Shown here: positions 8,521 to 29,681 of the stretch, in pieces
How the letters are laid out: each line of letters starts with the position of its first letter
How positions within the stretch are numbered: position 1 is the stretch's first letter
Source of the DNA: an uncultured Pseudomonadales bacterium
GTDB lineage: Bacteria > Patescibacteriota > Microgenomatia > UBA1400 > UBA12028
Length of the DNA stretch: 64,000 bases
Direction: 5' to 3'
Assembly: GCA_964635905.1 (NCBI GenBank)
Contig: CAZWPK010000003.1
Location: 66,459-130,458, forward strand
Made by a program: the position numbers and the translations under genes
Notes under the pieces: model-generated
Databases searched by the model: none
The model's input: the letters and a program-made list of their open reading frames with translations, nothing else
Told to the model about the DNA's origin: nothing

Positions 8521-8557
8521 GTAGAATAAGCTATCTATCGAAAGAATACAAATACTG

Positions 8558-11343: not shown

Positions 11344-13206
11344 TTAGTTTTCACTTGTACTGCCAGTGCTGCCGTTGCCACCTGCTGCGCTAGTGTCAGT
11401 ATTTTCGGCCTCTTTAATTTTGCCTCGAGTCTCAATATTTGTTTTTGCTTCACGAAGACCTTTTCCAAGTTCTTGTGTTGATTTTAGATCTCTTTGGAGA
11501 TGACCGACTGTCGATAATGCTTTTTGTGCATAACCAAGACCGCCACCAACAATTGCTGCTCCGCCGGCTCCTACACCAAGACCACGAGCTGCATCTCTAC
11601 GGATAGTTTGCCATCGCTGACCAGCTGGAGCCTTTCGTGCATTCAACGCTCCTACTGCAGCGCCGCCCGCTAATCCAACACCAGCGCCAATTCCGAGTGC
11701 ACCAATTGCGCCACCCAATCGACCTTGTTTAGCAAAGTCTCCAATCGCTTTACCTGCATCGATATTAAACTTCCCAGAAGCTAACTGTTTGGCAATTTCC
11801 ATGGCTTGAGGGAGCATCGCCAGTAAGCCGAACTTTAGGAAGGCAAGAGCCATGGTTGCTCCAACTCCTTGGTTGGAACCAATCTGAAGTGGAGAAAATC
11901 CTCCAATCCCAGCTTCGCCAGCTGAGTTAAAATCAGGATGATAGGTAAAGTAATTAGCAATCAGGATAAAGAAGATAACGGTAGGGAAGACTAACAAGTT
12001 AGACAAAATACCTTGTATCCAGGCTCCAAAGGTGTTTTGCCCAGGCATTGCTCCAATTAACAGCTGAATAGGAGCAAAGATTACCGAGAAGAATAGACCC
12101 GCATAGGCTTTCAGCAGCCCAAAGAAGATTCTAAATAGGTTGACAAGTAATGCAACCGCAATGACCAGGAACATAATGAGGCCTGCACCAATACCGACTA
12201 CTTGTGAGATTGCTTCACTTTGCTGCAGGCTTCCCATGATATCTGCAACCATTTCAGCGAAATTAGAGGCAACGTTATTAGCAACGCTAGTAAATAGGTT
12301 GGCCCCATTTTCGAAAATACTTCGTTGGAAAGCAATTTGACTTAAGTTTGACCAGGCAAGCTGGTTATCAATTGAGTTAGGAGTAGAAAAGACACCAATC
12401 ATTAAGTAGATTGCCAAATACATGATTTCGATCATAAAACCGGCGATTGCATACGAGAAGGTAATTAACAACAGTGACACAACCATCTTCGGTAATGCTT
12501 GTTGAATGGTTATGGCTGTCTTGCCGCCTTCTTTCCGTAAAGCAATCATGACGCCTACGATTAAGAACAGGATCACAAAAAAGAAATATGCTAAGTTGCG
12601 GAACAATCGCCACAAGTTTAATACGGGACGGAGCGAGGAAAATCCTAGTCCTTGTGCATAGGCTGGAGTTGCCCCAAACGGATTTTGAATACTTTCTTTT
12701 ACATAGGCAATATATTCGGTTCCTGTAGCAGGAGGAATATACATTTTTGAAGAATAATCGATCACAGTACCCATAGCACCAGGGGAATATGAGAGATATT
12801 GCTCTCCTTTACGAGGTACACCAACTCGGGCATTGCCATTAGCATCTACGGTGATAAAAGTAAGACTATTTGCTACATCTGAACCTATTGCTCCCGTGAT
12901 GTATTTTGAAGCAAAAGCCTGAACATTTTGTTCGTTAGTGGTAGATTCTTGCCTAATGGCATCTATTTGTTCTTGTTGAATAGGGGTTAGTGCTTTTGAG
13001 AGTGTGCTTGTTGCATACAAAACTCCCGCAATGAGGAAGAACACAATTGCAAGATGATTATTGACCTTCTTATATGCCTGATAGAATCGGCCAAAAGTTT
13101 GCTTTGAAAAAGAAACGACTTGCATAGCTATATTGTACACTGCCATATTTTTGTCGTAAACGTTAGGTTTATTGCCCACAAACACTGGCTTCAGTGATTG
13201 TGGCAA
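11344..13206 (-). CDS. Polytopic membrane protein, putative VirB6/TrbL-like channel component
   Basis: N-terminal TM segment, a ~170-aa extracytoplasmic loop, six or more further TM helices, then a Gly/Ala-rich disordered C-terminus (GAIGALGIGAGVGLAGGAAVGA). This is the topology typical of the TrbL/VirB6 family. It sits immediately downstream of the SLT-domain gene on the same strand. Confidence 0.5.
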   Translation of the reverse strand: MPQSLKPVFVGNKPNVYDKNMAVYNIAMQVVSFSKQTFGRFYQAYKKVNNHLAIVFFLIAGVLYATSTLSKALTPIQQEQIDAIRQESTTNEQNVQAFASKYITGAIGSDVANSLTFITVDANGNARVGVPRKGEQYLSYSPGAMGTVIDYSSKMYIPPATGTEYIAYVKESIQNPFGATPAYAQGLGFSSLRPVLNLWRLFRNLAYFFFVILFLIVGVMIALRKEGGKTAITIQQALPKMVVSLLLITFSYAIAGFMIEIMYLAIYLMIGVFSTPNSIDNQLAWSNLSQIAFQRSIFENGANLFTSVANNVASNFAEMVADIMGSLQQSEAISQVVGIGAGLIMFLVIAVALLVNLFRIFFGLLKAYAGLFFSVIFAPIQLLIGAMPGQNTFGAWIQGILSNLLVFPTVIFFILIANYFTYHPDFNSAGEAGIGGFSPLQIGSNQGVGATMALAFLKFGLLAMLPQAMEIAKQLASGKFNIDAGKAIGDFAKQGRLGGAIGALGIGAGVGLAGGAAVGALNARKAPAGQRWQTIRRDAARGLGVGAGGAAIVGGGLGYAQKALSTVGHLQRDLKSTQELGKGLREAKTNIETRGKIKEAENTDTSAAGGNGSTGSTSEN

Positions 13207-16200
13207 ACTGACTAGACATTAACTGTGCACACTGACAGTAATTCCGACTTCCACAACCCTGGACTGCTGGCGATTTTCCTACTACTACGCCTCCGCACAG
13301 TTGACCTGCTACGTTTCCACTAGTATCGATCTGAATACGTTTTGTCTCATTACAGCCACCCGCAGAATACTGGTCGGTTGATAAGCAAAGTCCATGGTAG
13401 GCACCAGCTGCCACATACCAGCGGGCAATTCCTTCTACATCGCGGATGTTTGCCAGGTTATAGCGTTGTTTAAGCAACCGAGCTGCGCCTGTAAGTGACG
13501 CTTCCAGTTCACAGGGGTTTCCGCTCACACCTAAATTTGCCCAGACATCGACAACAGCTGCACTGCTACAGGTTTTTGAAAGAATTTGCATAGGACCGGT
13601 GGCACCCACAGAGTTAATGGTGCACGCAATCGTACTTGTGGGTTGAGAATTTGGTGCATTACAAACGGCCGTGATGGTGCCTGCACCTTCAATACGTAAA
13701 AGCCCCCACAATATTTCAGGTGGGACGCCCTCACTGCTTGCTACTGTCTGAATAATCTGCTTTAAGCCATTTCCAGTGGAAGTGTTGGTGATAAAAGAAG
13801 GAATGACGGTGGTACGACAGGCGATTGGTCCTTCCGTAGGCCCAGGGGCTTCTTCTTCCATTCCTTTTGTACAGGCTGCTGGACCTTCTTTTAGGACGGA
13901 TTCAAAGCCAGGATAGGGGGCAGTAGGAACATTGGAATTAGGTCTTCCAATATTACAGATGATTTCCCAGAGCGAACGAGCAAGTTTGCCACCAGGTGTA
14001 ACAGGATTTGCATCAAACTGATTGGTATCGGGACCAACGATTTTCCCTCGCAAACGAATAAGCTCTCCGGATCGAGTTGCAGCGGGTAGTGAAGTTGGAC
14101 CAGCAGTTGCAGCAACGGGTCCAGAATTATACTGAATTCCAATTGGACCACTTTCGGTAGGAGGGGAGGCAATCGCGAAAGAATTGTCGCTTAGTTGTAA
14201 ATATCGAAAACCAACAAATTGATTTTTTTGACGTAATCGATCTTCTTGGGCTTTTGTTAATACCCAAAACTTATTTTGTTGTTGTTCTAAGGGTAAGAAA
14301 CGATCGACCATTTTATTTTCATAGGCTTGTAAATTCCGAAACTCTTCTGGGAGCAGGAAATAGGTTCGAATTCTAGCTTCTGAGCCTCGAGGAGACTGTT
14401 TTGCAGTCAGAACGGTTTGAAGTCTGATCTGAACCTCCGAGACAGGGTCTAAGGTTCCACCAGGGTTAATAATCTGTTTTCGTTCTGACGCTTTTTCACC
14501 AGTGATATCGGTGATACCTGCACATGACTGGCTATATTCTGGATGAATTCTGGTAGGAAAGGTTTCGGCATTGATTCTGCGAACAATAATCGATTCAAGA
14601 CTGTCGGCATCAGGACCCATGCAGTCTACACATTGTATGGTCGCTCCACTGTCGGAAGGATATTTCATTGAGTCTTGTGCAGAGCGATTGATCACGGTTT
14701 CGATTTCTTGCTTTTTTTCATCGGAGATAATTTTTTGCTCCTCTTTACCAAAGATGGAATGCATGGTTTGAATAAACCCACCATTGTAGGTAGGGAATGG
14801 GTCTCCACCACTTGGATTCTTTAACTCTGCAAATCCAGCTGGAACATAGACTTTGGTGATCCGAATTAACGATTTCAAGCGTTGTTCCGCATTGGTGTTG
14901 GTCAGGCCATTGGCTGCCCAGGGGGAGAACCATTTCTGGAAACGATCAAAGGTTGTGGGTACTCCACTTTCGGTGCGATCGGGTGTATCGACATATTGCA
15001 CGATATACGCGGGCTTAAATCCTCTGTGCGTTGTCGGTTCGACTTTACTAAACGCTTCTTCAACAGACTTCCCAAGTCTTGGTGTTTGCTGTGCACAACT
15101 ATACGTGCCAGGAATTTCACTTAAAACTTGCAAATAGGTCTTCCCAGTGCCAGGGATCTCAACATCGAGAGCACATCGACCAGTATCGGTAAGTTCAACG
15201 AGGGAGGAGTTATTAATCGGTGTGGGGGAGGTGCGTGGCATAGTACATAAGGACTGGATCGCACGAAGGAACTGCAGTTTTGTTTCGCACTGTTGTTCTC
15301 TTGAGGAGAGCTTTTTCACGACCCCGTTTGCAAAGGGGCCAACAATATCTTGAATTCCTTCTGCCTGGCTAAAGGGAGCATTATAAAAGCCTTCTAAATC
15401 ATCCAATCGTCGTTTGGGATCTGTGGGACGCGGGGTATCGGCGGATTCGAAGCGAAGTAGCGGTAAGGTGGTTCGCTGATTGTTGATAAGAACAGTTGCA
15501 GTAATTCCAGAGACTCTACATCCGGAGTTTCCATTTGGACATTGGCCATCAATAAAACTGTAGTAGTTGCTAGCAGGATTACTATCCACTTTATCTTCGT
15601 TTTCTAAACCACCGGTAAACTCCATGACACTTCCACAGGTATACATGTAGCGCGCAGCCATTGCTCTTTTCTCGGCGACTGTGGGTTGATCATCGATCCC
15701 AGGATAGATAAACGAGGCGGATTGATTTCGGGAACAGTCATTAAGTACCTCCGCACCGGTGCTGTCATAGGCTTTACCATACACATAAAATAGCCAGTCG
15801 CGTTTGGTAACATTACTATTCTTACAGGGGTCAATAATGAGGGCGGTGGCAGTCTCGACTCCTGACGGGAGCTTCACGGTATCCAGAAATTCCACTTGAT
15901 CTTGGATTGAGGGAGGGGGTTGGGTATTTGGGTTTACTCCAACTCCTCCAAAGTGGACAACTTTTTTCCCCGGGCACATGTCTGTTTCTACGATTCGCCA
16001 TGCATCCAATCCAGAGATTCCAGCAACTCGAGTAGGAATTCCATCAAAGACATTGGCAACTAGTACATCTGCGCCAGCACAAGCTCCACTCGCTCGAAAG
16101 GCTTGCATCCAGGGAACAGGATCCCAGTCTCCGTTATATAAATCGGGGGGTGCGGGAGCGATCCGATAATGTGAATCACTTCCAATTGCAGCGGTAAATA

Positions 16201-16702
16201 CTTTGAACTGTTGAGCATAACGAACTCCTGCTGCACGGGTATCTGTTAAACCTTGATATTCTAATGTTAAGTTATTGAGTTCATTTCCAAGGTACACGAT
16301 TGTTCCCTGGGGAAAGGCTCCCTTGTTTGCAAGCAAGCTTTGTGCATAGGTAGTAAAGACGCTGTCGGGAGTGTTTGGTCCAAAGTCCACGACACGGATA
16401 ACAATTTTGCGATTGGCAGGCTGGGGGATTGGATTGTACGCCGGTCCTCCTAGAGCATTGGCGATCTGAACAACCCCTGTGTATTGTTGAGGCTCAATGA
16501 GGTATCGGTAGAGATCTTCTTGTGCTATTTGGATGTAGCCGGCACCGGCTACTTCAGGACCAACATCTTCACGTCGTACCCCGCTGGTTTGAGCGTATGT
16601 TGTTGAAGCGCTTACCAGTAACAAACCGATAGCCACACTCAAACACAATACAAAAAACTTCCAACAATTTTGGAGCCTAAACACCATACAGATAGTATAC
16701 AA
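13169..16702 (-). CDS. Large secreted cell-wall hydrolase with a C-terminal SLT lytic transglycosylase domain (VirB1-like)
   Basis: 1177 aa with an N-terminal signal/anchor (LVSASTTYAQTSG). The C-terminal domain carries family-1 lytic transglycosylase motifs: EILWGLLRIEGAG (catalytic Glu), GPMQIL, AAGAYHGL. Confidence 0.75.
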   Translation of the reverse strand: MYTICMVFRLQNCWKFFVLCLSVAIGLLLVSASTTYAQTSGVRREDVGPEVAGAGYIQIAQEDLYRYLIEPQQYTGVVQIANALGGPAYNPIPQPANRKIVIRVVDFGPNTPDSVFTTYAQSLLANKGAFPQGTIVYLGNELNNLTLEYQGLTDTRAAGVRYAQQFKVFTAAIGSDSHYRIAPAPPDLYNGDWDPVPWMQAFRASGACAGADVLVANVFDGIPTRVAGISGLDAWRIVETDMCPGKKVVHFGGVGVNPNTQPPPSIQDQVEFLDTVKLPSGVETATALIIDPCKNSNVTKRDWLFYVYGKAYDSTGAEVLNDCSRNQSASFIYPGIDDQPTVAEKRAMAARYMYTCGSVMEFTGGLENEDKVDSNPASNYYSFIDGQCPNGNSGCRVSGITATVLINNQRTTLPLLRFESADTPRPTDPKRRLDDLEGFYNAPFSQAEGIQDIVGPFANGVVKKLSSREQQCETKLQFLRAIQSLCTMPRTSPTPINNSSLVELTDTGRCALDVEIPGTGKTYLQVLSEIPGTYSCAQQTPRLGKSVEEAFSKVEPTTHRGFKPAYIVQYVDTPDRTESGVPTTFDRFQKWFSPWAANGLTNTNAEQRLKSLIRITKVYVPAGFAELKNPSGGDPFPTYNGGFIQTMHSIFGKEEQKIISDEKKQEIETVINRSAQDSMKYPSDSGATIQCVDCMGPDADSLESIIVRRINAETFPTRIHPEYSQSCAGITDITGEKASERKQIINPGGTLDPVSEVQIRLQTVLTAKQSPRGSEARIRTYFLLPEEFRNLQAYENKMVDRFLPLEQQQNKFWVLTKAQEDRLRQKNQFVGFRYLQLSDNSFAIASPPTESGPIGIQYNSGPVAATAGPTSLPAATRSGELIRLRGKIVGPDTNQFDANPVTPGGKLARSLWEIICNIGRPNSNVPTAPYPGFESVLKEGPAACTKGMEEEAPGPTEGPIACRTTVIPSFITNTSTGNGLKQIIQTVASSEGVPPEILWGLLRIEGAGTITAVCNAPNSQPTSTIACTINSVGATGPMQILSKTCSSAAVVDVWANLGVSGNPCELEASLTGAARLLKQRYNLANIRDVEGIARWYVAAGAYHGLCLSTDQYSAGGCNETKRIQIDTSGNVAGQLCGGVVVGKSPAVQGCGSRNYCQCAQLMSSQFATITEASVCGQ

Positions 16703-16711
16703 CGAAGGTCA

Positions 16712-17146
16712 TTAAGGAGAGCCAGGCAATTGTGTGTTGAATTGCAAAATGGTTTGCACCCCGGTAAAGTTCGCAATAAAACGCAGAATGAGGAACGATG
16801 CTAGAGCTACAACAATTCCTAGTATTGCGAAGGTAAGCGCATTCTTGCCACCTTCAACGCCTTTAGTGTTGCTGCCCGCAGTCAAGTACCGAAACGATCC
16901 CACTAAAAACATTACAAAGGCAGCAATTCCAATCATGGTAATCGCAACAGATAAGACATTAGCGACTAAGCATTCAATTCCTTCAAAAGTGGCGACATCA
17001 TTCTCGCTAGCAACGGTGGAATATCCGTGAACACAGCGATTATTAATCGAGCTCCAGGCACTTGTCTGAGCCGAAGCAGGTGGAGTGTTGAGAGAGAAAA
17101 AATAGAAGGCACTTGTTAATACAATCGCAATTACTTTAAATATCAT
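16712..17146 (-). CDS. VirB2/TrbC-like two-helix pilin family protein
   Basis: Signal peptide (PPASAQTS), then hydrophobic helix - TAGSNTKGVEGGKNALT loop - hydrophobic helix. Paralogous to the array at 18423..21566. Confidence 0.65.
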   Translation of the reverse strand: MIFKVIAIVLTSAFYFFSLNTPPASAQTSAWSSINNRCVHGYSTVASENDVATFEGIECLVANVLSVAITMIGIAAFVMFLVGSFRYLTAGSNTKGVEGGKNALTFAILGIVVALASFLILRFIANFTGVQTILQFNTQLPGSP

Positions 17147-17186
17147 ACGTAAAAAGTGTTATTTATTGACCACTTCAAATTATACA

Positions 17187-18359
17187 CTACTGATGTACTG
17201 TTTGACGCCGAAGTCTTTTTCCTAACACCACTAACAGAGCCAGTAGATATAGCGTTGGTACAAAAGGGAAAACACTCGGATAGAAGGGAGAAAAGTAGGC
17301 TAACAGAAAAGTAAGATACCCAAGAAGAATAAAAACTCTGATTTGAAGGGTTTTCTCCTTCCGTAGGAAAAACAACGGGATGAGGAGTAAGACAGCATCA
17401 TGGACATGCACATGCACGCCGCACAGGAGAATGAGCGGAACGAGCATTGCAAAGACTGCACTACTAGGTGCCAACCATACTTTGTTTTTAACACTCCATA
17501 AGGCTGTGATAAGTGTGGTTAGTCCCGTTAAACCAAGCATCAACAGGGTCGGTTTCAAATTTGGAATCAAGCGATGAAGTTGCCATGCAAATCCCTGCCA
17601 AGAAATCATGGCTTCTTTGCTGTGTTCGGGCGAACTAGATGATACATAGGAGATAAATGTTCCAAAGAAGGTACGCACTTCGGTTCCAAGAATAAAAAAA
17701 GAAAGCAAACTGAGGAGAACTCCTCCGATCAGTAACCCTTTAAGAAATGGTCGTTTCTCTCGAAGCATCCAGTACAAAGTAACGAAAATGGCTATTTGAG
17801 GCTTGTACCAAAGCACGCTTGCCAACAACCCAGCCGTAAATGGCTTATTCTTCTGAATCCGGTTTTGAATTATTAAGAGTAATAAGAGACTAAGTAATGA
17901 AGACTGCCCATTTTTTAAGGTGACAAAGAATGGAATGAAGACGCTTGCCTCAAGGAGCAGTTGACTAAAAGAGAGTTTGATAGTGAATTCAGATTTGATC
18001 AGGTAGATGCAGGCAACAAACACGGCAAGATTAAAACTCACCCATATCCCGAATGCGATGTCGACCGGGAGCCAAGCAAGGGGAGCAAAAAGAAGTGCCA
18101 AATAGGGTGGATTAATAAAGGAGAGTGTATAGAACTTCTTTTCATCGACAGGGAAAAACTGTTTTTGAGTTAGTTCTTGTTGGTCGTTTGTATAGAGACT
18201 AGATGGAGTGGTTTGAAGAATATATCCAGAGCTGTAGAACACACGGAAATCAGAGTCGTAGAGATTTGTTTTAGACAGGAGAAAGGCAAGCCACCCAACC
18301 GTAGCAATCAACACGACTTTTAAATAGAGCTGAACTGCAGACACTGCCTGCTTCATCAC
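17187..18359 (-). CDS. Polytopic membrane protein, DUF2029/GT87-like (GT-C type) glycosyltransferase candidate
   Basis: 390 aa with about 10 TM helices and a DFRVFYSSG motif in the first extracytoplasmic loop, resembling the catalytic-Asp loop of GT87/PimE-like mannosyltransferases. It is embedded between pilin genes. Confidence 0.45.
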   Translation of the reverse strand: MMKQAVSAVQLYLKVVLIATVGWLAFLLSKTNLYDSDFRVFYSSGYILQTTPSSLYTNDQQELTQKQFFPVDEKKFYTLSFINPPYLALLFAPLAWLPVDIAFGIWVSFNLAVFVACIYLIKSEFTIKLSFSQLLLEASVFIPFFVTLKNGQSSLLSLLLLLIIQNRIQKNKPFTAGLLASVLWYKPQIAIFVTLYWMLREKRPFLKGLLIGGVLLSLLSFFILGTEVRTFFGTFISYVSSSSPEHSKEAMISWQGFAWQLHRLIPNLKPTLLMLGLTGLTTLITALWSVKNKVWLAPSSAVFAMLVPLILLCGVHVHVHDAVLLLIPLFFLRKEKTLQIRVFILLGYLTFLLAYFSPFYPSVFPFVPTLYLLALLVVLGKRLRRQTVHQ

Positions 18360-18375
18360 TCTATTCTCTCATAAC

Positions 18376-18402
18376 AAAAACCCCCGCTTAAGCGGGGGTT
18401 TT
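18376..18402 (-). terminator. Rho-independent terminator (bidirectional-capable hairpin) downstream of pilin gene 18423..18827
   Basis: aaaaa-CCCCCGC-ttaa-GCGGGGG-tttt. The 7-bp GC stem is flanked by an A-run and a T-run, so it reads stem plus T-tract on both strands. Confidence 0.7.
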
Positions 18403-18422
18403 ATCTGAGTCAATTTTGTTGA

Positions 18423-18827
18423 TTAGAAACCTTGTGGGATTTCAATCGATCCACCGACACTTGTTCCGAAGAATCGGTTAATCACGGCTGCGATTGCAAA
18501 TGCGGAGGCAACGATTGCAAGTCCGATAATTGCGTTCGTAATCTTTTGTCGTGCACTTTCAGTCTTTGATTTATCTCCACCTGCAGTGAGCCATTCGACT
18601 CCACCCCAGATTAAGTAGATAAAGACTAATAGTCCAACGATTCCTAAAATTAATCGGAGTGCTCCGTTAATTAAGGTTCCAATTTGCGTAATACGGAATC
18701 CTGCTTGACCTGCATCGACATCAATGGAGTCCTCATTTGGGACACCCGCTTGTGCCAAGATAGGGGTTACCGTTGCAAAAAATGTTGCTACAGCTGTAGT
18801 AACAGATGACAATACTTTTTTAGCCAT
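18423..18827 (-). CDS. VirB2/TrbC-like pilin family protein, candidate major pilin
   Basis: Signal peptide ending ILAQA. Mature part has helix - LTAGGDKSKTESARQKITNAIIG - helix. AGGAGA RBS 7 nt upstream. An extended -10 promoter lies upstream and a strong terminator downstream. Confidence 0.75.
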   Translation of the reverse strand: MAKKVLSSVTTAVATFFATVTPILAQAGVPNEDSIDVDAGQAGFRITQIGTLINGALRLILGIVGLLVFIYLIWGGVEWLTAGGDKSKTESARQKITNAIIGLAIVASAFAIAAVINRFFGTSVGGSIEIPQGF

Positions 18828-18936: not shown

Positions 18937-19587
18937 TTATGGACACGAAGAACCTGCTTGCCAGGACCATGCTTTGGCAGCACCATTTTGACAGCTGCAC
19001 GGTTCCCAGTGTGCATAAGGAATACCAGTGGTTGTTTGACACTTTACATTAGCGGCAGCACCACCTACACAGTATCCTCCAGCGCCACCATCACTGGAGC
19101 TTACTCCAACCTGACAGATCTGAGTCCCCGTTCCAGAACCACCTGAGCCACCACTTCCGCCGTTGCTGCTACCGGGGACATATTGTTGAGGTTGATTTAA
19201 TCCTAACAAGCTTACTGGGCCACCATTGATTCCTAAGAAGTAGAAGAGAATTCCCACAATCGCAAACACTGATGCAAAAATTGCAAAACCCACTATGGCT
19301 TGCGTAATCATGCTTCGCGCTGCTTCGACTTTGCTTTTATCTCCACCCGCAAGTACCCAGTTAGCACCACCCCAAACTAAATATCCAAATAGAATTAACC
19401 CAGTGATTCCTAGTCCCACATTCGCAAGTCGAGCAATCAGTAATCCTAAATCCACCACAAAGTATCCAGCTGTTCCCGCATCCAAGGTGAGGTCGGGTGT
19501 AGCTCCAGGTGCGCCTTGAGCAAAAATTTGAGAAGGAGCAAGAATGAATAGGAGAATGAGAACAAAGAATATAGTCTTAATATTCAT
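18937..19587 (-). CDS. VirB2/TrbC-like pilin with a C-terminal Gly/Ser linker and a small Cys-rich domain
   Basis: Signal peptide (IFAQGAPG), helix - LAGGDKSKVEAARSMITQAIVG - helix, then a GSSNGGSGGSGGSGTGT linker and about 80 aa containing 6 Cys (CQVG..YCVGG..KCQTT..EPCSC..SSCP). Confidence 0.7.
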   Translation of the reverse strand: MNIKTIFFVLILLFILAPSQIFAQGAPGATPDLTLDAGTAGYFVVDLGLLIARLANVGLGITGLILFGYLVWGGANWVLAGGDKSKVEAARSMITQAIVGFAIFASVFAIVGILFYFLGINGGPVSLLGLNQPQQYVPGSSNGGSGGSGGSGTGTQICQVGVSSSDGGAGGYCVGGAAANVKCQTTTGIPYAHWEPCSCQNGAAKAWSWQAGSSCP

Positions 19588-19595
19588 AGATAAAA

Positions 19596-20036
19596 CTAGA
19601 ATTTTCCACCCATGATAGGAGTGGGAAGATTTTGCAAACCACCTGTTCCGGTTGCCGGAACTTGCTGTCTAGACGAAAAGGTCTTCCCGAAAATATTAAG
19701 CTGAATGCGATCACCAAGTCCGAAGAAGTTAAGGACAATTGCATAGATTGCAAACACCGAGGCGAGGACCACTAGTCCAATTGCTGCTTGGGTCAACGTA
19801 GCGCGGGCTTCTTCCACTTTCCCTTTATCTCCACCGGATGTTACCCATTTAAGCGCTCCTAAAAAGAAGAACACTAATACTGCAAGCGCTCCAACAGTTA
19901 ATGCTGCGCGAGCACCTATTTCAATTAGGTTCCCAAACGTTTGAATAGGTGAGATTTCTAATGTGCGGGACTGTAAGTCAATTACTTGTGTTGGGGTTGT
20001 AGGAGCCTTTGGTGCTTGTGCAAGATAGTTCATCAT
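19596..20036 (-). CDS. VirB2/TrbC-like pilin family protein
   Basis: helix - VTSGGDKGKVEEARATLTQAAIG - helix. No classical cleavable signal peptide. The gap to the upstream gene is 1 bp. Confidence 0.7.
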   Translation of the reverse strand: MMNYLAQAPKAPTTPTQVIDLQSRTLEISPIQTFGNLIEIGARAALTVGALAVLVFFFLGALKWVTSGGDKGKVEEARATLTQAAIGLVVLASVFAIYAIVLNFFGLGDRIQLNIFGKTFSSRQQVPATGTGGLQNLPTPIMGGKF

Positions 20037-20037
20037 A

Positions 20038-20391
20038 TTAAAGATTATTGGCGAACTCTGGTTGTAATAGATTAAAGCCTAATAGACTACTAATGAACAA
20101 ACTGATTGCAACGGTACCCACAAGCACGAGCAGACCGATGATTGATTGGGTAATCCTATTTCGTGCACTTTCAATTTTCCCTTTATCACCTCCGGCCAAA
20201 ATCCATTCCAATGCTCCGTAAATCAACATTACCAGAAGGGCAATGCTTCCTAATGTAACCGCAGTTCGCCACAGAGTAACAATAATATTTCCTAGCGCAA
20301 ATGCTCCTGTTCCTGCACCAAAATCTGCTGTAATTGCAGGGTTAGTAATGACATTCTGGTTTAGCTTTGACTGTGCGATGAATGCAAACAT
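20038..20391 (-). CDS. VirB2/TrbC-like pilin family protein
   Basis: helix - ILAGGDKGKIESARNRITQSIIG - helix. 117 aa. Confidence 0.7.
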   Translation of the reverse strand: MFAFIAQSKLNQNVITNPAITADFGAGTGAFALGNIIVTLWRTAVTLGSIALLVMLIYGALEWILAGGDKGKIESARNRITQSIIGLLVLVGTVAISLFISSLLGFNLLQPEFANNL

Positions 20392-20393
20392 AC

Positions 20394-20756
20394 TTATGGT
20401 GTTAATTTTTGTAATACGGAAATAGGATCTAAAATATCAATTCCTAAAACTCCACCCACAATTCCTGAAATTGCATAGGCAGCAATAACCACGACTAGTC
20501 CGAGAGCAGCTTGTGTCATCTGGCTACGAGCACTTTCAACTTTTCCTTTATCTCCACCAGCTGACACCCAAGAGAGTCCAGCAAAGATTAAGTAGATAAG
20601 AAACATTAAGCCAGCTAGGGCCGTTAAAAATCCAATGAAAGTGCTCACAAAGGTGACAACAGGTGTACCAGCGCCGACTGCGTCCGATCCCGTTGGGGCA
20701 AATGGAGAGGCAATTGGGGCGATAGTTCCGAGTCGGACAGCGATAAGATTAAACAT
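20394..20756 (-). CDS. VirB2/TrbC-like pilin family protein
   Basis: helix - VSAGGDKGKVESARSQMTQAALG - helix. 120 aa. Confidence 0.7.
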   Translation of the reverse strand: MFNLIAVRLGTIAPIASPFAPTGSDAVGAGTPVVTFVSTFIGFLTALAGLMFLIYLIFAGLSWVSAGGDKGKVESARSQMTQAALGLVVVIAAYAISGIVGGVLGIDILDPISVLQKLTP

Positions 20757-20761
20757 AAGTA

Positions 20762-21133
20762 TTATGGTGCCTGTGGAATATCTGGATTCAGGATATACAT
20801 TGCATCGCCAAATAATAGGAAACTGATGATACCTGTGATTCCAAACGAGCCGACAATCACGACTAGTCCGAGTAAACTGTTTGTGAGTTGCTGCATTGCT
20901 TGTTCGGTGGCCTTTGGATTTCCAGCAGAGCCAAGATAAGTGTAGCCGGCAGCTATGATATTAAATAAGCCGAACAAACCAGCAATGATGCTGATAAGTT
21001 TAACTACATTAGAAATGAAGCCGAAGATACCGATGCCACCTTGTGACGCAGCGTTAAAACGCTGTACCCCTGGTGGCGGGGTCACAACCCCGAAAATTCC
21101 TTGTGTGATGAGAACATAAGCGGTTGCGTACAT
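20762..21133 (-). CDS. VirB2/TrbC-like pilin family protein (divergent loop variant)
   Basis: helix - LGSAGNPKATEQAMQQLTNSLLG - helix. The start is placed at the internal Met (MYATAYVLI) to avoid overlapping the upstream paralog. The track ORF extends to 21175. Confidence 0.6.
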   Translation of the reverse strand: MYATAYVLITQGIFGVVTPPPGVQRFNAASQGGIGIFGFISNVVKLISIIAGLFGLFNIIAAGYTYLGSAGNPKATEQAMQQLTNSLLGLVVIVGSFGITGIISFLLFGDAMYILNPDIPQAP

Positions 21134-21146
21134 AGTGTAGTTTTTA

Positions 21147-21566
21147 TTATAGCGTAGAGTTAAAGATTTGGACACCAGTGATCAACTCTACGATTTGTAC
21201 AATCCAGTATGCTGCAAAAATTACTACTAACCCTAAAACGGCGGTGACAATCTGGTTTTTCCCTTGCTCCATGTTTTTGGCGTTCCCACCAGAGGCAATG
21301 ATCGCAAAACCTCCTCCGATCAGGAGAAATAGGAAGATTAACCCAGCAACAATGAATGCTAAAGGAACAAAAAGGTTAAGAAAAGCAGCAAGATTGGGGT
21401 ACAGTGAGCTAACACCCCGATCAACAATTGGTCCTCCAGGATAAACGGGAACTCCTTGGCCAGTTTTTAGTGAGGTTCCCAAGTCGATCTGTGACAAGAG
21501 TGTAAGCATATCTACTATGTAGTATACAATATTGCGTATGACTTTTCCTAAAGAAAAGGAACTCAT
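21147..21566 (-). CDS. VirB2/TrbC-like pilin family protein (divergent loop variant), first gene of the array
   Basis: helix - IASGGNAKNMEQGKNQIVTAVLG - helix. The N-terminus is uncertain (internal Met at ~21509). The annotated start overlaps the divergent sigma-factor start by ~35 bp. Confidence 0.6.
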   Translation of the reverse strand: MSSFSLGKVIRNIVYYIVDMLTLLSQIDLGTSLKTGQGVPVYPGGPIVDRGVSSLYPNLAAFLNLFVPLAFIVAGLIFLFLLIGGGFAIIASGGNAKNMEQGKNQIVTAVLGLVVIFAAYWIVQIVELITGVQIFNSTL

Positions 21567-22071
21567 CGACCGATTGAAGAAGGGTGACGAATCAGCCGTA
21601 CGAGAATGGTACCAAGCTTACGCAACCAAGCTCTTGGGGTTTTTTCACTCCAAAGTGCAGGTGAGTAGCGACGCTGAAGAATTAGTGCAAGATACGTTTC
21701 TCTCCTGTCTTGCCTCACTCCCACTGTTCCGAGGAAGCTCAGGGCTCTACAGCTTTATGTTGGGGATCGCCCGTCATGAATTAGCGGACTATTGGAGAAA
21801 GAAGTACGCTAAGAAAGCCATCTCCGCATTGCCATTCGGTGAAGAGATCTTGCTTTCCCTAGCATCAGATCATTCTTCCCACCAAGACCAAGTCCACAAC
21901 ATTCTGTCTTCGCTTCCCGTTGAAATTTCAGAAGTACTGCTTTTAAAGTATGTGGATGGGTACTCCGTCAAACAACTGGCCGATCAGTTCGGGGTTTCCA
22001 ATGTTGCAATGCAAAGTCGGATCTATCGGGCAAAAGAAGCATTTGTAGCCGAGCTTGCTAAACAGGAATAG
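21532..22071 (+). CDS. ECF-type sigma-70 family RNA polymerase sigma factor
   Basis: Region 2 (ELVQDTFLSCLASLPLF...FMLGIARHELADYWRKK) and region 4 HTH (LLLKYVDGYSVKQLADQFGVSNVAMQSRIYRAKEAF). 179 aa. Confidence 0.8.
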   Translation: MRMTFPKEKELIDRLKKGDESAVREWYQAYATKLLGFFHSKVQVSSDAEELVQDTFLSCLASLPLFRGSSGLYSFMLGIARHELADYWRKKYAKKAISALPFGEEILLSLASDHSSHQDQVHNILSSLPVEISEVLLLKYVDGYSVKQLADQFGVSNVAMQSRIYRAKEAFVAELAKQE

Positions 22072-22656: not shown

Positions 22657-22893
22657 ATGCAAATCTCACGACACTGGCGACTAAACAGTCAGAGGTACCG
22701 CCTTGAAGGAGTACGGTATCAGAACGGACATGTTAGTCTGCAAAACAGGCCAGTTGTGCTTGAGGTACGAGAATTTCGAGGTAAGGAAATCCTTTCTAAG
22801 GCAGTTGAAGTTGCCAATGCACAGCCAGTGACAGTGACAGAGACAGAGGCAGTGACTGTAGCAGATGTAACGACATATGGAAATCGAACATGA
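22657..22893 (+). CDS. Hypothetical small basic protein
   Basis: Start chosen at MQISRHWRL because an AAGGAGA RBS precedes it. The C-terminus has a VTVTETEAVTV low-complexity repeat. Confidence 0.35.
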   Translation: MQISRHWRLNSQRYRLEGVRYQNGHVSLQNRPVVLEVREFRGKEILSKAVEVANAQPVTVTETEAVTVADVTTYGNRT

Positions 22894-23432
22894 TTAGTAA
22901 TCATCTTGATCAAGTCACACTAGTAAATGCGCAAGATGAGGTCATTGGCTCCATGGATAAAGTTGAGGCGCATAAAGGAGATGGAAAGCTGCATCGAGCA
23001 ATCTCTGTGTTTTTGTTCAACGAGAAGGATGAATTGCTTATTCAGCAACGGAGTGCCAAAAAGATTGTGGGTGCGCATCAATGGGCAAATACCTGTTGTG
23101 GAAATGTTCGTCCCACAGATTCATATCTTGAATGTGCTACACGTAGGCTGTCTGAAGAATTAGGAATTACTGGGGTTACGCTAACACCCATTACTAAATT
23201 CATCTATAAGGTTCGGTGTAATGATGAATTTAGCGAGCATGAGGTAGACACAGTTTTTATTGGTACCTACACAGAGAAGGTTATGCCCAACCCCGGAGAG
23301 GTTCAAGCTTACCAGTGGATTATAAAAAGCGAACTTAGAGCACTGATGGACCAGCAAACTCTATCTTTCGCCCCCTGGGTACAGTTCTTGTTGCAGCAAC
23401 CAAAAGTTCAGAAGGTGTTATATGGTGAATAG
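22890..23432 (+). CDS. idi: Isopentenyl-diphosphate delta-isomerase, type 1 (Nudix fold)
   Basis: HRAISVFLFN, WANTCCGNVRP (catalytic Cys) and RRLSEELGIT align with E. coli Idi HLAFSSWLFN / WTNSVCGHP / RRCRYELGVEI. Confidence 0.8.
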   Translation: MISNHLDQVTLVNAQDEVIGSMDKVEAHKGDGKLHRAISVFLFNEKDELLIQQRSAKKIVGAHQWANTCCGNVRPTDSYLECATRRLSEELGITGVTLTPITKFIYKVRCNDEFSEHEVDTVFIGTYTEKVMPNPGEVQAYQWIIKSELRALMDQQTLSFAPWVQFLLQQPKVQKVLYGE

Positions 23433-25043: not shown

Positions 25044-25045
25044 TT

Positions 25046-25552: not shown

Positions 25553-25571
25553 GATACAATAGAGACTTCGT

Positions 25572-26270
25572 ATGAAGCAAACTTCCAACATCCCAAACCA
25601 TCTCGCAATCATCATGGATGGAAATCGTCGTTGGGCACGATCCCATGGATGGGAAGCAATACGTGGTCACGAATACGTAGTCGATAACGTTATCGAACCA
25701 ATCGTGGATCGCTGTATTGAACTAGGTATTTCCTATCTAACCTTGTGGGCATTTAGTACAGAAAATTGGGAACGTGACAAACGCGAAATCGAAGGAATGA
25801 TGCAATTATTCCGACGTGCATTTGAGAAGAAGGTTGAAGACTTACATAAAAAAGGAGTGAAACTCCAGATTATTGGCGATATTGATCGGTTTCCCGAAGA
25901 CATTGCCAACAATGCCAAACGCTGGGTAGAGATATCGAAAGATAACACGAAGATTACGGTGAGCTTTGCGTTAAACTATGGGGGAAGGGAAGAATTGTTG
26001 CGCGCAATCAACTTGCTTCATCAACAGACTCCGACAGCGACAACAATTACCCAAGCTGACCTGGAATTACACCTTGCAACTACAGGCATGCCAGATCCCG
26101 ACTTAATCATTCGTCCTGGTGGACAGTTTCGACTATCCGGATTTTTGCCTTGGCAATCAGTGTATTCGGAGCTGTATTTCACTGACATTCTGATGCCGGA
26201 TTTTCAAGTCAATGAATTAAACGCAGCTTTAGAAGACTATGCCAACCGACAGCGTCGATTTGGCAAATAA
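25572..26270 (+). CDS. uppS: Undecaprenyl/isoprenyl diphosphate synthase (cis-prenyltransferase)
   Basis: HLAIIMDGNRRWA, TLWAFSTENWERDK, and the C-terminal RxG and FLPWQS motifs. Confidence 0.9.
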   Translation: MKQTSNIPNHLAIIMDGNRRWARSHGWEAIRGHEYVVDNVIEPIVDRCIELGISYLTLWAFSTENWERDKREIEGMMQLFRRAFEKKVEDLHKKGVKLQIIGDIDRFPEDIANNAKRWVEISKDNTKITVSFALNYGGREELLRAINLLHQQTPTATTITQADLELHLATTGMPDPDLIIRPGGQFRLSGFLPWQSVYSELYFTDILMPDFQVNELNAALEDYANRQRRFGK

Positions 26271-26738: not shown

Positions 26739-27851
26739 TTACAGAATATCAACGCGTAGGATTAGTTCCACTAATTGAGCTAAGAAATAGGAACAAAAGA
26801 GCAGCAAGAAACCGACAATGGCGTTCGTGATCCGTTGTTTTCCTGCCTCTTGGCTTTTGGGATTTGCGGCTCCAGTGAGCATTTCAAATCCTCCCCACAT
26901 AATCATGACGAAAAGAATGAGTCCGGCAAACGTAAACAAGTAAGGCAATAACCGAGAGATGATCCCTCTGGGGGTCGTGAGATCGGCAGTAGGCTGCTCA
27001 GCGAAAATTGAACTATTTAAGCTATCGAAAAGGGCAGTGGTGTTTTCACATACTCCTCGTGGAAAGGTACAGTCGCCAAGACCACACCCTTGAGTATTAC
27101 CACTGGTGCAGTAACTTGCGCCTCTTGAATTGATATACACCCTTGCATATCCATTTTGACGACAGAGAGCTTCTGCTTGACTGCGAAGCATTAATTGGTC
27201 GACGTTAAGGTTGATCTGTTGCCCCATACTGATCTGTCGAGCGTGCTGTTTTTGTTCTCGACTGCACAAGACATCCGTTCCATTTTCCTCAATACAGGTT
27301 TCTGTAACACTTCCATTTCCTAACAGCTGACACGAATCTGGAGCAAGTGTGAGTTGCGCTTGATTTGCGGTGGCTAAACATTGGGTGTTGGTTGCCTCTG
27401 TCCATCCGCAGCAACGTGCATTCGTTCCGCCAGCCGGATCGGTCAGAGAGATATTGGGGCACGTGGAGGGGCAATTATAATTATCTCGTGCATGTGTCCA
27501 CTTTGTTCCACAGGTTACGGTGCTACCGGGTGGGGCTAGAGGAAGAAAAGCAGATGAACATGCCCATTCGCGTCCCGGACGTTGTTGTGGGGTCTGAGTG
27601 AGTCCTAGCGGTGCAAACGCATCGACCCAGGTTGAATTCCGACAGACATAACACAGATTGTCGGTTCCCCAACACGCAGTTCCTTCCGCATACGATGCAA
27701 GCCCGTTTTCACATTTGGGTCCGCAGAGAGCTTGAGCTTTTGATGGCAGGAAAAATCCGACGCAAAAAAACAAACTAAGAATGAATACTTGGATTGTGAT
27801 TGCACTTCGCACCATCTTCTTAGTGTAGAAGATTTTCCATGATTGGTCCAA
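26739..27851 (-). CDS. Secreted Cys-rich extracellular domain fused to a C-terminal VirB2/TrbC-like pilin module
   Basis: Signal peptide (probable start MVRSAITIQV at ~27815). About 270 aa with 26 Cys. The C-terminal 75 aa (TPRGIISRLLPYLFTFAGL...TGAANPKSQEAGKQRITNAIVG...) match the pilin family and are ~85% identical to 27861..28184. Confidence 0.7.
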   Translation of the reverse strand: MDQSWKIFYTKKMVRSAITIQVFILSLFFCVGFFLPSKAQALCGPKCENGLASYAEGTACWGTDNLCYVCRNSTWVDAFAPLGLTQTPQQRPGREWACSSAFLPLAPPGSTVTCGTKWTHARDNYNCPSTCPNISLTDPAGGTNARCCGWTEATNTQCLATANQAQLTLAPDSCQLLGNGSVTETCIEENGTDVLCSREQKQHARQISMGQQINLNVDQLMLRSQAEALCRQNGYARVYINSRGASYCTSGNTQGCGLGDCTFPRGVCENTTALFDSLNSSIFAEQPTADLTTPRGIISRLLPYLFTFAGLILFVMIMWGGFEMLTGAANPKSQEAGKQRITNAIVGFLLLFCSYFLAQLVELILRVDIL

Positions 27852-27860
27852 CAGTGAGAC

Positions 27861-28184
27861 TTACAAGATGTCTACGCGAAGCACTAATTCGACAAGTTGG
27901 GCGATGAAGTACGAACAGAAAAGCAGCATAAACCCGATGATTGCGTTCATGATGCGATTTTTACCTGCTTCCTGACTTTTAGGATCAGAGGCGCCTGTTA
28001 ACATTTCCATTCCACCCCAAATGATCATGATAAAGAGAATTAGGCCAGCAAAGGTGAAAATATACGGGAGTAATTCAGAGATAATTCCACGAGGGGTTTG
28101 AAACTGTGCGACTTTGGCTGGATCAACACCGTCGAATATTTGATCATTAAGGTCTTGGATGAATTGCGCGTTGGGTTCTACCAT
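27861..28184 (-). CDS. VirB2/TrbC-like pilin module protein without a signal peptide
   Basis: The C-terminal 75 aa are near-identical at the protein level to those of 26739..27851 but diverged at the DNA level. The start is set at the internal Met (MVEPNAQ) to avoid overlap. The track ORF runs to 28232. Confidence 0.55.
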   Translation of the reverse strand: MVEPNAQFIQDLNDQIFDGVDPAKVAQFQTPRGIISELLPYIFTFAGLILFIMIIWGGMEMLTGASDPKSQEAGKNRIMNAIIGFMLLFCSYFIAQLVELVLRVDIL

Positions 28185-28191
28185 AGAAATT

Positions 28192-29538: not shown

Positions 29539-29681
29539 ACCTACTAATTTTACCATGAAGCGTGAAAATCTAGAGGGGGAGATCGATTTTAGGTTAGATT
29601 TATAGATAGGTCTCATATCTTGAGGACATTTCCCACTATCTTCGGGTGTGCGAATGATGAGATCTTCGGTAGAATAGAGAG

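What the first reader, a model, noticed from the sequence alone, without database searches (positions are those of the whole stretch)
17187..18359. GT-C/DUF2029-like polytopic membrane enzyme embedded in the pilin array
A 390-aa protein with ~10 TM helices and a DFRVFYSSG motif in the first outside loop sits between two pilin genes on the same strand. This is reminiscent of GT87/PimE-type glycosyltransferases, and of pilin O-glycosylation systems in general. It could glycosylate the pilins or a surface glycan associated with the appendage.
Basis: inference. Interest (0 to 1): 0.55.

Follow-up and report, generated by a model that had tools for sequence, protein, structure and literature searches.

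The report
GT87 glycosyltransferase inside T4SS-pilin array
A membrane sugar-transferring enzyme of the mycobacterial PimE family (GT87) sits inside a tandem array of conjugation-type (VirB2-like) pilin genes in an ultrasmall Woesebacteria-like bacterium, which suggests, without proving, that this lineage decorates its pilus or the membrane around it with sugar.

Summary
Window 17187..18359 (-) encodes a 390-aa (probably 389-aa) polytopic membrane protein with DFRVFYSSG at residues 37-45, flanked by same-strand pilin genes.

The family call is right:
- Pfam GT87/DUF2029 scores 72.8 bits against a cutoff of 25.
- The AlphaFold model (pLDDT 88.7) matches PimE best (TM 0.68-0.72).
- D37 is invariant in 43/43 relatives.
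- Q152 and K186, counterparts of PimE's phosphate-binding Q163 and K195, are at least 90% conserved.
- There are no Wzy_C, PMT or transporter hits.

It is not a PimE orthologue (20 bits against 413).

The "pilins" are T4SS/VirB2-like (PF18895), not type IV pilins. Such arrays are already described in Patescibacteria, but without any glycosyltransferase.

The GT87 gene is an accessory insertion. It sits in one slot, after a conserved terminator that follows the major pilin and before the last pilin. It is present in five distinct related arrays, and inverted inside a very distant one. It is absent from three otherwise syntenic arrays.

The acceptor is unknown. No clear pilin feature tracks its presence, and no donor synthase lies in the window. 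Best guess: a polyprenyl-phosphate-sugar-dependent enzyme that modifies a membrane-embedded pilus component. This is a moderately interesting new context for a known enzyme family.

The parts
17187..18359 (-). GT87-family GT-C glycosyltransferase, 390 aa (389 aa from the ATG at 18356). Putative catalytic base is D37 in DFRVFYSSG. Other conserved residues: Q152, K186 (YKPQ), H316/H318/H320-D321.
   Evidence: Pfam PF09594 E 4.7e-20, 72.8 bits against cutoff 25. AF2 pLDDT 88.7. Foldseek top hits are PimE 9dm5/9dm7. The profile hits the PimE sequence at E 9.7e-12. D37 is invariant in 43 sequences.
18373..18398 (-). Intrinsic terminator-like hairpin (CCCCCGC-TTAA-GCGGGGG plus a T-run) between the major pilin gene and the GT87 gene.
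   Evidence: Folding of 18360..18425 gives -24.5 kcal/mol, z = -5.95 against shuffles. A hairpin is present at the same place, with different stem sequences, in L001, L003, L004, L012, L017, L018 and L019. The simple terminator scan did not list it.
18423..18827 (-). Putative major T4SS (VirB2-like) pilin, 134 aa, with a Sec-type signal peptide. It is the most conserved paralogue of the array.
   Evidence: PF18895 44.6 bits against cutoff 26.6. The TM core is nearly identical across arrays.
16712..17146 (-). 'Last' T4SS-pilin paralogue, 144 aa, with a conserved Cys pair. It starts 40 nt downstream of the GT87 stop.
   Evidence: PF18895 25.7 bits. Custom pilin HMM E 1e-41. Orthologues aligned.
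18937..21566 (-). Six further T4SS-pilin paralogues: 18937-19587, 19596-20036, 20038-20391, 20394-20756, 20762-21175 and 21147-21566. The 216-aa one carries a Gly/Ser/Thr-rich linker and a Cys-rich C-terminal domain.
   Evidence: PF18895 hits near the cutoff for three of them. All six hit the custom HMM at E <= 1e-36. Alignment A2.
13169..16702 (-). 1177-aa secreted protein that follows the array. Its C-terminus is weakly SLT/lysozyme-like, so it may play a VirB1-like wall-lytic role.
   Evidence: Pfam SLT E 0.15 at residues 985-1103, below threshold. An orthologue occupies the same position in every array examined.
11344..13206 (-). 620-aa polytopic membrane protein, a probable VirB6/TrbL-like channel component.
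   Evidence: Weak NCBIfam hits to Mbov_0396/MMCAP2_0566 ICE transmembrane proteins. At least 298 homologues, and one source name begins 'Trb'.
21532..22071 (+). ECF-type sigma factor, divergent from the pilin array and syntenic in all arrays.
   Evidence: Pfam Sigma70_r2, Sigma70_r4_2 and Sigma70_ECF. Conserved position.
25572..26270 (+). Context only: undecaprenyl-diphosphate synthase, which makes the lipid carrier that a GT-C donor would use. Isoprenoid-precursor genes precede it at 22890-25552.
   Evidence: Pfam Prenyltransf 247.6 bits. NUDIX and AA_kinase hits. These genes also neighbour GT87-less arrays, so their presence is not evidence of a link.

Best explanation
The gene encodes a compact GT-C(A)-fold glycosyltransferase of family GT87.

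Inferred from the PimE mechanism: it takes a single sugar from a polyprenyl-phosphate-sugar donor on the outer face of the cytoplasmic membrane. Invariant D37, just after TM1 at the start of the first juxtamembrane helix, would act as the catalytic base. K186, Q152 and the His cluster at 316-320 would hold the phosphate.

Shown: the gene is an accessory insertion in a conserved operon-like array of VirB2-type pilin genes in a Woesebacteria-like (Patescibacteria) lineage. It sits directly after the terminator that follows the major pilin gene and directly before the last pilin gene.

Inferred: it is expressed at a lower level than the major pilin. The favoured acceptor is a membrane-embedded component of this pilus system. 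The pilins themselves come first, because their short N- and C-termini lie at the outer membrane surface before assembly. The 1177-aa secreted protein is second. The enzyme has no soluble acceptor-binding domain, which suits an acceptor that diffuses in the membrane.

My confidence in the enzyme class is about 0.9. My confidence in a pilus-linked acceptor is about 0.4.
For: Enzyme class:
- Pfam GT87 scores 72.8 bits against a cutoff of 25 and is the only family hit at E <= 1.
- A 17-sequence profile hits M. abscessus PimE 9dm5 at E 9.7e-12 over residues 81-320, with GQ aligned to GQ.
- The AF2 model has pLDDT 88.7 and pTM 0.89. Its best PDB matches are PimE (TM 0.68-0.72), then PIGU, GPI-mannosyltransferase I, ALG6, ALG12 and ALG9.
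- D37 is invariant in 17/17 and 43/43 homologues, and Q152 and K186 are at least 90% conserved.
- In PimE, D58, Q163 and K195 are essential and H321/H322 contribute (PMC12041525).
- A member of the same Patescibacteria-like GT87 clade (P0154) sits next to an undecaprenyl-phosphate translocase gene (PF04018, E 1e-30). This fits a polyprenyl-phosphate-linked donor.

Link to the pilus:
- The gene occupies the same slot in the window and in L001, L003, L004, L012 and L017, with GT87 identity down to 36-39%.
- In L006 the ECF sigma is only 26-28% identical to the window's, yet a GT87 (31% identical) lies inverted with pilin ORFs on both sides. On a rough NJ tree it falls in a different subclade of the family.
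- More distant GT87 genes from other bacteria have no pilin neighbours.
- The terminator after the major pilin is conserved, with different stem sequences.
- Precedent: the GT-C enzyme TfpW is encoded immediately downstream of pilA and glycosylates that pilin (10.1101/2020.04.19.049825).
Against: - Every characterised GT87 enzyme (PimE, and from my own knowledge Rv2181 and AftC) acts on lipid-anchored glycans, never on proteins.
- Three syntenic arrays (L018, L019, L021) have no GT87 within 10 kb. L018 is as close to the window by sigma identity (55%) as GT87-bearing L004 and L017. The enzyme is therefore dispensable for the apparatus.
- The major pilin and the Ser/Thr/Gly-rich tailed pilin look the same with and without GT87.
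- The whole region is syntenic across these genomes, so a conserved position could be inheritance rather than selection.
- One clade member (L020) has a non-pilin upstream neighbour.
- No polyprenyl-phosphate-sugar synthase (GT2) was found in the 64-kb window.
- The D37 = PimE D58 equivalence is positional. HMM alignments to PimE start at residue 78-81.
Confidence: 0.42

Rival explanations
1. General envelope glycosyltransferase. The GT87 builds or decorates a membrane-anchored glycolipid, lipoglycan or teichoic-acid-like polymer, as PimE, Rv2181 and the YfhO-type systems do. It has no specific role in the pilus, and its position in the array is a neutral insertion inherited by descent.
For: All characterised GT87 members use lipid-anchored acceptors (own knowledge). 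The gene is missing from three syntenic arrays. No clear pilin feature tracks it. The Patescibacteria-like GT87 clade has about 35 representative clusters, and the one other context seen is a UndP translocase, not pilins. The whole neighbourhood is syntenic anyway.
Against: A GT87 is embedded in pilin arrays in two distant lineages with different orientation (sigma 26-28% identical). The insertion sits precisely between the terminator and the last pilin with short spacers (8-40 nt to the next pilin). That placement suggests co-expression with the downstream pilin, the 1177-aa protein and the VirB6-like gene.
Confidence: 0.3
2. Pilus-lipid glycosyltransferase. VirB2-type pili are stoichiometric pilin:lipid assemblies. 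The GT87 glycosylates the membrane lipid that co-assembles with these pilins, or the lipid annulus around them, and so changes the pilus surface or lumen.
For: Bacterial and archaeal VirB2-type pili contain about 1:1 lipid (PMC9905601). GT87 enzymes are lipid-glycan transferases. The enzyme is compact, with no soluble domain. It is embedded in the array.
Against: There is no direct evidence. In known structures the lipid head groups face the lumen, where a sugar would be awkward. It is unknown whether these Patescibacteria pilins form lipid-containing pili at all.
Confidence: 0.1
3. The acceptor is the 1177-aa secreted, wall-lytic-like protein or another secreted product of the operon, not the pilins.
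For: The GT87 lies in the same downstream transcription unit as the 1177-aa gene: after the terminator, same strand, short spacers. That protein has Ser/Thr/Pro-rich stretches.
Against: The 1177-aa orthologue is present unchanged in position in GT87-less arrays. The GT87 has no soluble domain to recognise a large globular protein.
Confidence: 0.1
4. Non-catalytic GT-C-fold scaffold (PIGU-like) that helps insert or chaperone the pilins.
For: PIGU chains are among the next-best structural matches (TM 0.49-0.52).
Against: The catalytic Asp and the phosphate-binding Lys and Gln are conserved across 43 sequences. That conservation is not expected of a pseudoenzyme.
Confidence: 0.03

Closest known systems
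PimE (Mycobacterium; GT87; PDB 9DM5/9DM7), a polyprenyl-phosphate-mannose:Ac1PIM4 alpha-1,2-mannosyltransferase
   Same: Same Pfam family, and it is the best sequence-profile and structural match in the PDB. Both are compact, about 390-415 aa, with no soluble domain. Both carry an Asp just after TM1, and the Gln and Lys that bind the donor phosphate are conserved.
   Different: Only 16-18% identical. It fails the NCBIfam PimE equivalog model (20.3 bits against 413). Tyr42 is 5 residues from the Asp rather than 4, and it is not universally conserved. The host is a Patescibacteria-like bacterium; I know of no phosphatidylinositol mannosides in that group (own knowledge, not tested). The genomic context is a pilin array, not cell-envelope lipoglycan genes.
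TfpW (Pseudomonas aeruginosa group IV pilin arabinosyltransferase, GT-C)
   Same: A GT-C enzyme encoded immediately next to the pilin gene it modifies, working on the periplasmic face. It is the best functional analogy for the favoured hypothesis.
   Different: TfpW is 646 aa with a C-terminal TPR domain, is Emb-like rather than GT87, and modifies a type IV pilin. The enzyme here is 390 aa with no extra domain, and its neighbours are VirB2-type pilins.
VirB2-like pilin arrays of Patescibacteria (Microb Genom 2025, PMC12102498)
   Same: The flanking genes are exactly this: tandem, highly divergent PF18895 pilins. [quoted passage not shown] Here there are 8 pilin genes around the GT87 and 3 more PF18895 proteins 5 kb away.
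   Different: The paper never uses the word stem 'glycosyl' (0 occurrences). It does not identify the interrupting non-pilin genes. The GT87 insertion is therefore undescribed there.
PglL/TfpO O-oligosaccharyltransferases (Wzy_C) and PMT (GT39) protein O-mannosyltransferases
   Same: Polytopic membrane enzymes that glycosylate pilins or secreted proteins on the outer face from lipid-linked donors.
   Different: No Wzy_C or PMT Pfam hit even at E <= 1. The family and fold subclass differ.

Membership tests
GT87 / Pfam PF09594 (formerly DUF2029) | Score above the Pfam gathering threshold | tested here: met
   72.8 bits against 25, E 4.7e-20, residues 81-305 cover model positions 1-225 of 237.
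GT87 / Pfam PF09594 (formerly DUF2029) | GT-C(A) fold: N-terminal TM core plus juxtamembrane helices, with PimE as nearest solved structure | tested here: met
GT87 / Pfam PF09594 (formerly DUF2029) | Conserved catalytic Asp in the first extracytoplasmic segment (PimE D58) | tested here: met
   D37 is invariant in 17/17 and 43/43. It lies 8 residues after TM1, at the N-cap of helix 38-50. The equivalence to D58 is positional, because HMM alignments to PimE begin at residue 78-81.
GT87 / Pfam PF09594 (formerly DUF2029) | Donor-phosphate ligands (PimE Q163, K195, H321/H322) | tested here: met
   GQ151-152 aligns with PimE's GQ. K186 (YKPQ) lies within one column of PimE's K in the profile alignment. 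Both are at least 90% conserved. An H316-x-H318-x-H320-D321 cluster is conserved in the clade.
GT87 / Pfam PF09594 (formerly DUF2029) | Uses a polyprenyl-phosphate-mannose (or -arabinose) donor | not testable with these tools
   No GT2 donor synthase in the window. UppS is nearby. A clade member neighbours a UndP translocase.
PimE orthologue (NCBIfam NF009915 equivalog) | Score above the equivalog cutoff | tested here: not met
   20.3 bits against a cutoff of 413. It is a family member, not an orthologue.
Pilin O-oligosaccharyltransferase (PglL/TfpO, Wzy_C) or PMT (GT39) | Wzy_C or PMT domain | tested here: not met
   GT87 is the only Pfam family at E <= 1.
Pilin-linked GT-C (TfpW-like arrangement) | The GT-C gene is adjacent to and co-oriented with a pilin gene, and the arrangement is conserved | tested here: met
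   Same slot in the window and in L001, L003, L004, L012 and L017; inside the array but inverted in L006.
Pilin-linked GT-C (TfpW-like arrangement) | The pilin is actually glycosylated in a GT-dependent way | not testable with these tools
   Needs mass spectrometry or genetics. Sequence comparison of pilins with and without GT87 was uninformative, apart from a weak lead in the last pilin.
Patescibacteria VirB2-like pilin array (flanking genes) | Tandem PF18895/PF04956 pilin paralogues | tested here: met
   PF18895 hits. Custom HMM E <= 1e-36 for all eight paralogues of the array. Matches the description in PMC12102498.

The most novel reading that the evidence does not exclude
A GT87 enzyme, a family known only for building mycobacterial lipoglycans, has been recruited in a lineage of ultrasmall Patescibacteria to glycosylate a VirB2-type (conjugation-type) pilin or the lipid that co-assembles with it. 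To my knowledge that would be the first glycosylated T4SS pilus and the first protein or pilus-lipid acceptor for GT87. It could tune host recognition or phage evasion in an episymbiont. That role is my speculation, by analogy with glycosylation of type IV pili.
Probability: 0.3. Interest if true: 0.65.

Novelty: new variant of a known kind. Interest (0 to 1): 0.45.

Why it matters
VirB2-like pilin arrays are widespread in Patescibacteria, and the one studied experimentally is reported as essential (PMC12102498). What the filaments look like and how they vary between lineages is unknown.

A lineage-specific glycosyltransferase inside the array gives a concrete, testable handle on surface variation of this appendage:
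- mass spectrometry of the pilins;
- a D37 mutant;
- comparison with natural arrays that have and lack the GT87.

It would also extend GT87 beyond actinobacterial lipoglycan synthesis. If the enzyme is only a general envelope enzyme, the finding reduces to a routine annotation of a DUF2029 protein.

Tried and rejected
1. A single-sequence phmmer search against PDB sequences found nothing. The 17-sequence profile was needed to reach PimE.
2. I tried to align the N-terminal DF..FY segment to PimE with a profile of residues 1-125. Only the NPP/TM2 region aligned, so D37 = D58 stays a positional inference.
3. The genome contigs and metagenome-contig scans with the clade alignment returned few loci: 1 and 4. 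The three distant ones (L014-L016) come from bacteria with Mla and sigma-54 genes and have no pilins.
4. I looked for a polyprenyl-phosphate-sugar synthase (GT2), GtrA or DUF368 in the window by Pfam on about 45 ORFs. None was found.
5. I looked for Ser/Thr-rich or other features in the pilins that track GT87 presence. The major pilin and the Gly/Ser/Thr-tailed pilin are alike in arrays with and without GT87. The only lead is weak. The last pilin has C-[VT]-[HD]-G-Y and a C-terminal FNTQ in all 6 GT87-bearing arrays and in none of the 3 GT87-less arrays, but these are few independent lineages.
6. I used the last homologue search on P0154 to sample the wider clade. It returned only itself on a 1.7-kb contig.
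7. The terminator scan did not list the hairpin at 18373-18398. Direct folding shows it clearly.
9. Rejected readings:
   - Transporter: no such hits, and MFS/MATE matches have TM below 0.25.
   - Wzy_C/PMT.
   - Mobile-element cargo: the window is chromosomal, with housekeeping genes on both sides.
Full report
**Observation**

The ORF at 17187..18359 (-) exists and gives 390 aa from a GTG start. The identical database protein is 389 aa, so translation probably starts at the ATG at 18356. DFRVFYSSG occupies residues 37-45. Hydropathy gives about 10 strong hydrophobic peaks, and the AlphaFold2 model is almost entirely helical, with 19 helices.

Both same-strand neighbours are pilin-like: 18423..18827 upstream and 16712..17146 downstream. 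They are PF18895 'T4SS_pilin' proteins, the VirB2/TrbC-like pilins of type IV secretion or conjugation systems, not type IV pilins. With the six further paralogues at 18937..21566, the array has eight pilin genes. Three more PF18895 proteins lie at 26739..29616.

The window is chromosomal. It carries FtsH, NusA, IF-2, SmpB/tmRNA, DnaG, Ddl and UvrC. The nearest named homologue comes from a Candidatus Woesebacteria MAG.

**What the protein is**

- Pfam GT87 (PF09594, formerly DUF2029) is the only family hit at E <= 1. It scores 72.8 bits against a gathering score of 25.
- The NCBIfam PimE equivalog model hits weakly (20.3 bits against 413). The protein is therefore a family member, not a PimE orthologue.
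- A single-sequence search of PDB sequences found nothing. A 17-sequence profile finds M. abscessus PimE at E 9.7e-12 over residues 81-320.
- The AF2 model built on that alignment has pLDDT 88.7 and pTM 0.89.
- Its best Foldseek matches in the PDB are the two PimE entries (E 1.4e-5 and 5.2e-5, TM 0.68-0.72). Next come other GT-C(A) proteins: PIGU, GPI mannosyltransferase I, ALG6, ALG12 and ALG9. Transporters appear only at TM below 0.25.

The PimE cryo-EM paper identifies these residues (PMC12041525):
- D58, at the tip of the first juxtamembrane helix, is the catalytic base.
- Y62, Y92, Q163, K195 and W319 are essential; H321 and H322 contribute.
- K195 and H322 stabilise the phosphate.

The counterparts here:
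- D37 is invariant in 17/17 and then 43/43 homologues. It lies 8 residues after TM1, at the N-cap of helix 38-50.
- Q152 and K186 (in YKPQ) are at least 90% conserved. The GQ pair aligns with PimE's GQ.
- A His cluster, H316-x-H318-x-H320-D321, is conserved in the clade.

One caveat applies. No HMM alignment to PimE reaches the N-terminal segment, so D37 = D58 is a positional inference.

**Anatomy of the locus**

On the minus strand the order is:
1. A divergent ECF sigma factor at 21532..22071.
2. Six pilin paralogues.
3. The most conserved ('major') pilin at 18423..18827.
4. A strong hairpin plus T-run at 18373..18398 (-24.5 kcal/mol, z = -5.95).
5. The GT87 gene.
6. The 'last' pilin at 16712..17146, 40 nt after the GT87 stop.
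7. A 1177-aa secreted protein with a weak C-terminal SLT-like region.
8. A 620-aa polytopic protein with weak similarity to Mycoplasma ICE VirB6-like proteins. It has at least 298 homologues.

The hairpin after the major pilin is present in seven other arrays with different stem sequences, so it is a conserved element. A terminator behind the major subunit gene implies that everything downstream, the GT87 included, is made in smaller amounts. This is an inference. Short -10-like TAnAAT motifs sit just upstream of the next start codon, so I cannot say whether the GT87 is expressed by read-through or from its own promoter.

**Comparative evidence**

The GT87 is in the same slot in every close relative. 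The loci are L001/L002, L003, L004/L005, L009-L013 and L017. GT87 identity across them runs from 100% down to 36-39%.

The array itself is much more widespread than the GT87. Three arrays with the same synteny (sigma, pilins, ~1100-1250-aa protein, VirB6-like) have no GT87 within 10 kb: L018, L019 and L021. By ECF-sigma identity, L018 (55% to the window, 63% to L004) is as close as the GT87-bearing L004 and L017. The gene has therefore been lost or gained within the group and is not needed for the apparatus.

Conversely, L006 comes from a far more distant genome, with sigma only 26-28% identical. It carries a 31%-identical GT87 in inverted orientation with pilin ORFs on both sides. On a rough NJ tree that protein does not group with the window subclade.

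An exhaustive HMM search finds 13,481 GT87-like representatives. About 35 of them form a Patescibacteria-like clade around the query. One of these (P0154/L020) sits next to an undecaprenyl-phosphate translocase gene (PF04018, E 1e-30) rather than a pilin. More distant GT87 genes from other bacteria have no pilin neighbours.

The association with pilin arrays is therefore real, and it recurs or persists across deep divergence. It is neither universal for the enzyme clade nor for the arrays.

**Acceptor**

I could not determine it.

- The major pilin is nearly identical in its membrane core with and without GT87, and its termini show no consistent difference.
- The pilin with a Gly/Ser/Thr-rich linker and a Cys-rich C-terminal domain occurs in both kinds of array.
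- The only co-varying feature is weak. The last pilin has C-[VT]-[HD]-G-Y after its first Cys and a C-terminal FNTQ in all six GT87-bearing arrays and in none of the three GT87-less ones. These represent few independent lineages.
- No polyprenyl-phosphate-sugar synthase is encoded in the window.
- Undecaprenyl-diphosphate synthase and isoprenoid-precursor genes lie between the two pilin sets, but they also neighbour GT87-less arrays.

**Mechanism proposed**

By homology with PimE, the enzyme transfers one sugar from a polyprenyl-phosphate-sugar on the outer membrane face, with D37 as base. It is compact and has no soluble domain. TfpW, by contrast, carries a large periplasmic C-terminal TPR region. 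From my own knowledge, PglB and the PMT enzymes also carry large soluble domains. Such an enzyme suits an acceptor that lives in the membrane.

VirB2-type pilins are membrane hairpins before assembly, with both termini outside (established knowledge). That makes them topologically suitable acceptors. VirB2-type pili also contain stoichiometric lipid (PMC9905601), which gives a lipid-acceptor variant of the same idea.

The main rival is a general envelope glycolipid or wall-polymer glycosyltransferase whose position is inherited. My estimates:

| Reading | Probability |
|---|---|
| Enzyme class (GT87 glycosyltransferase) | ~0.9 |
| Pilus protein as acceptor | ~0.4 |
| General envelope enzyme | ~0.3 |
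| Pilus lipid as acceptor | ~0.1 |
| 1177-aa protein as acceptor | ~0.1 |

**Comparison with what is known**

- The enzyme is a divergent member of GT87 (membership features met) but not a PimE orthologue.
- Functionally, the closest analogy is TfpW. This is a GT-C enzyme encoded immediately downstream of pilA that glycosylates that type IV pilin. Its family, size and pilin class all differ.
[quoted passage not shown] That paper contains no word beginning 'glycosyl'.
- Full-text searches found no paper linking DUF2029/GT87 to Patescibacteria, and only one paper, on eukaryotic N-glycosylation, that contains both 'DUF2029' and 'pili'.
- From my own knowledge, no VirB2/TraA-type pilin has been shown to be glycosylated. 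The known modifications are N-acetylation and cyclisation.

**Verdict**

The family assignment is correct. The functional link to the pilus is plausible but unproven. This is a new genomic context, and possibly a new acceptor class, for a known enzyme family, and it is of moderate interest.

Noticed in passing
window 19596-20036, 20038-20391, 20394-20756 (-); also paralogues in L004, L017, L018, L019, L021: Several array pilins begin with a very short conserved N-terminus M-x-x-L-[IL]-A-Q (MFAFIAQ, MMNYLAQ, MLTLLAQ, MFILLAQ...). The major and last pilins instead have full Sec signal peptides that end in the same ...[LF]AQ motif. This looks like a shared processing site with a 5-8-residue leader, and I cannot explain it.
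   Followed up: partly
window 26739-29616 (-): A second set of three PF18895 proteins of 370, 123 and 474 aa. Two of them carry long N-terminal extensions ahead of a C-terminal pilin domain.
   Followed up: no
window 22890-26270 (+): Isoprenoid genes lie between the two pilin sets: NUDIX (IDI-like), a 263-aa unknown, AA_kinase (isopentenyl-phosphate-kinase-like), a second NUDIX, and undecaprenyl-diphosphate synthase. The adjacency to the pilin array is conserved in L001, L003 and L018. HMG-CoA reductase is nearby in L006 and L019.
   Followed up: partly
window 13169-16702 (-): A 1177-aa secreted protein conserved after every array. It has a 'YLGNELNN' glycoside-hydrolase-like motif near the N-terminus and a sub-threshold SLT/lysozyme-like C-terminus (residues 985-1103, E 0.15). 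It may be a wall-degrading component.
   Followed up: no
window 18357-18372 and 17147-17186 (-); same positions in L004, L017, L018, L019: -10-like TAnAAT motifs lie only 6-12 nt upstream of the start codon of the gene that follows the conserved terminator, and also before the last pilin (TGTATAAT). This hints at very short or leaderless transcripts.
   Followed up: no
window 35979-38796: A large serine recombinase (36036-37817, -) overlaps the end of tRNA-Ser(TGA) at 35979-36066. It is followed by a split IS30-like transposase (37808-38380 HTH_38; 38326-38796 rve) and a Fic-MerR fusion protein at 39877-40863. This looks like an integration hotspot.
   Followed up: no
window 45400-45485 (+): ARAGORN calls a tRNA-Ser with anticodon ACT, which is unusual for bacteria, in addition to tRNA-Ser GCT at 47738-47826.
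   Followed up: no
L008 1454-11580: In an unrelated metagenomic contig, two GT87 genes and a PMT_2 gene lie within a few kb of Tad-pilus genes (secretin, RcpC, CpaE-like ATPase). This is another GT-C/pilus neighbourhood, possibly coincidental.
   Followed up: no
L017 20228-21875: In the GT87-bearing array L017, PrgI-like and TraC/VirB4-like genes lie about 8-10 kb beyond the VirB6-like gene. No VirB4-like ATPase was detected in the corresponding part of the window: the 857-aa and 447-aa proteins at 7177-11131 have no significant Pfam hit.
   Followed up: partly
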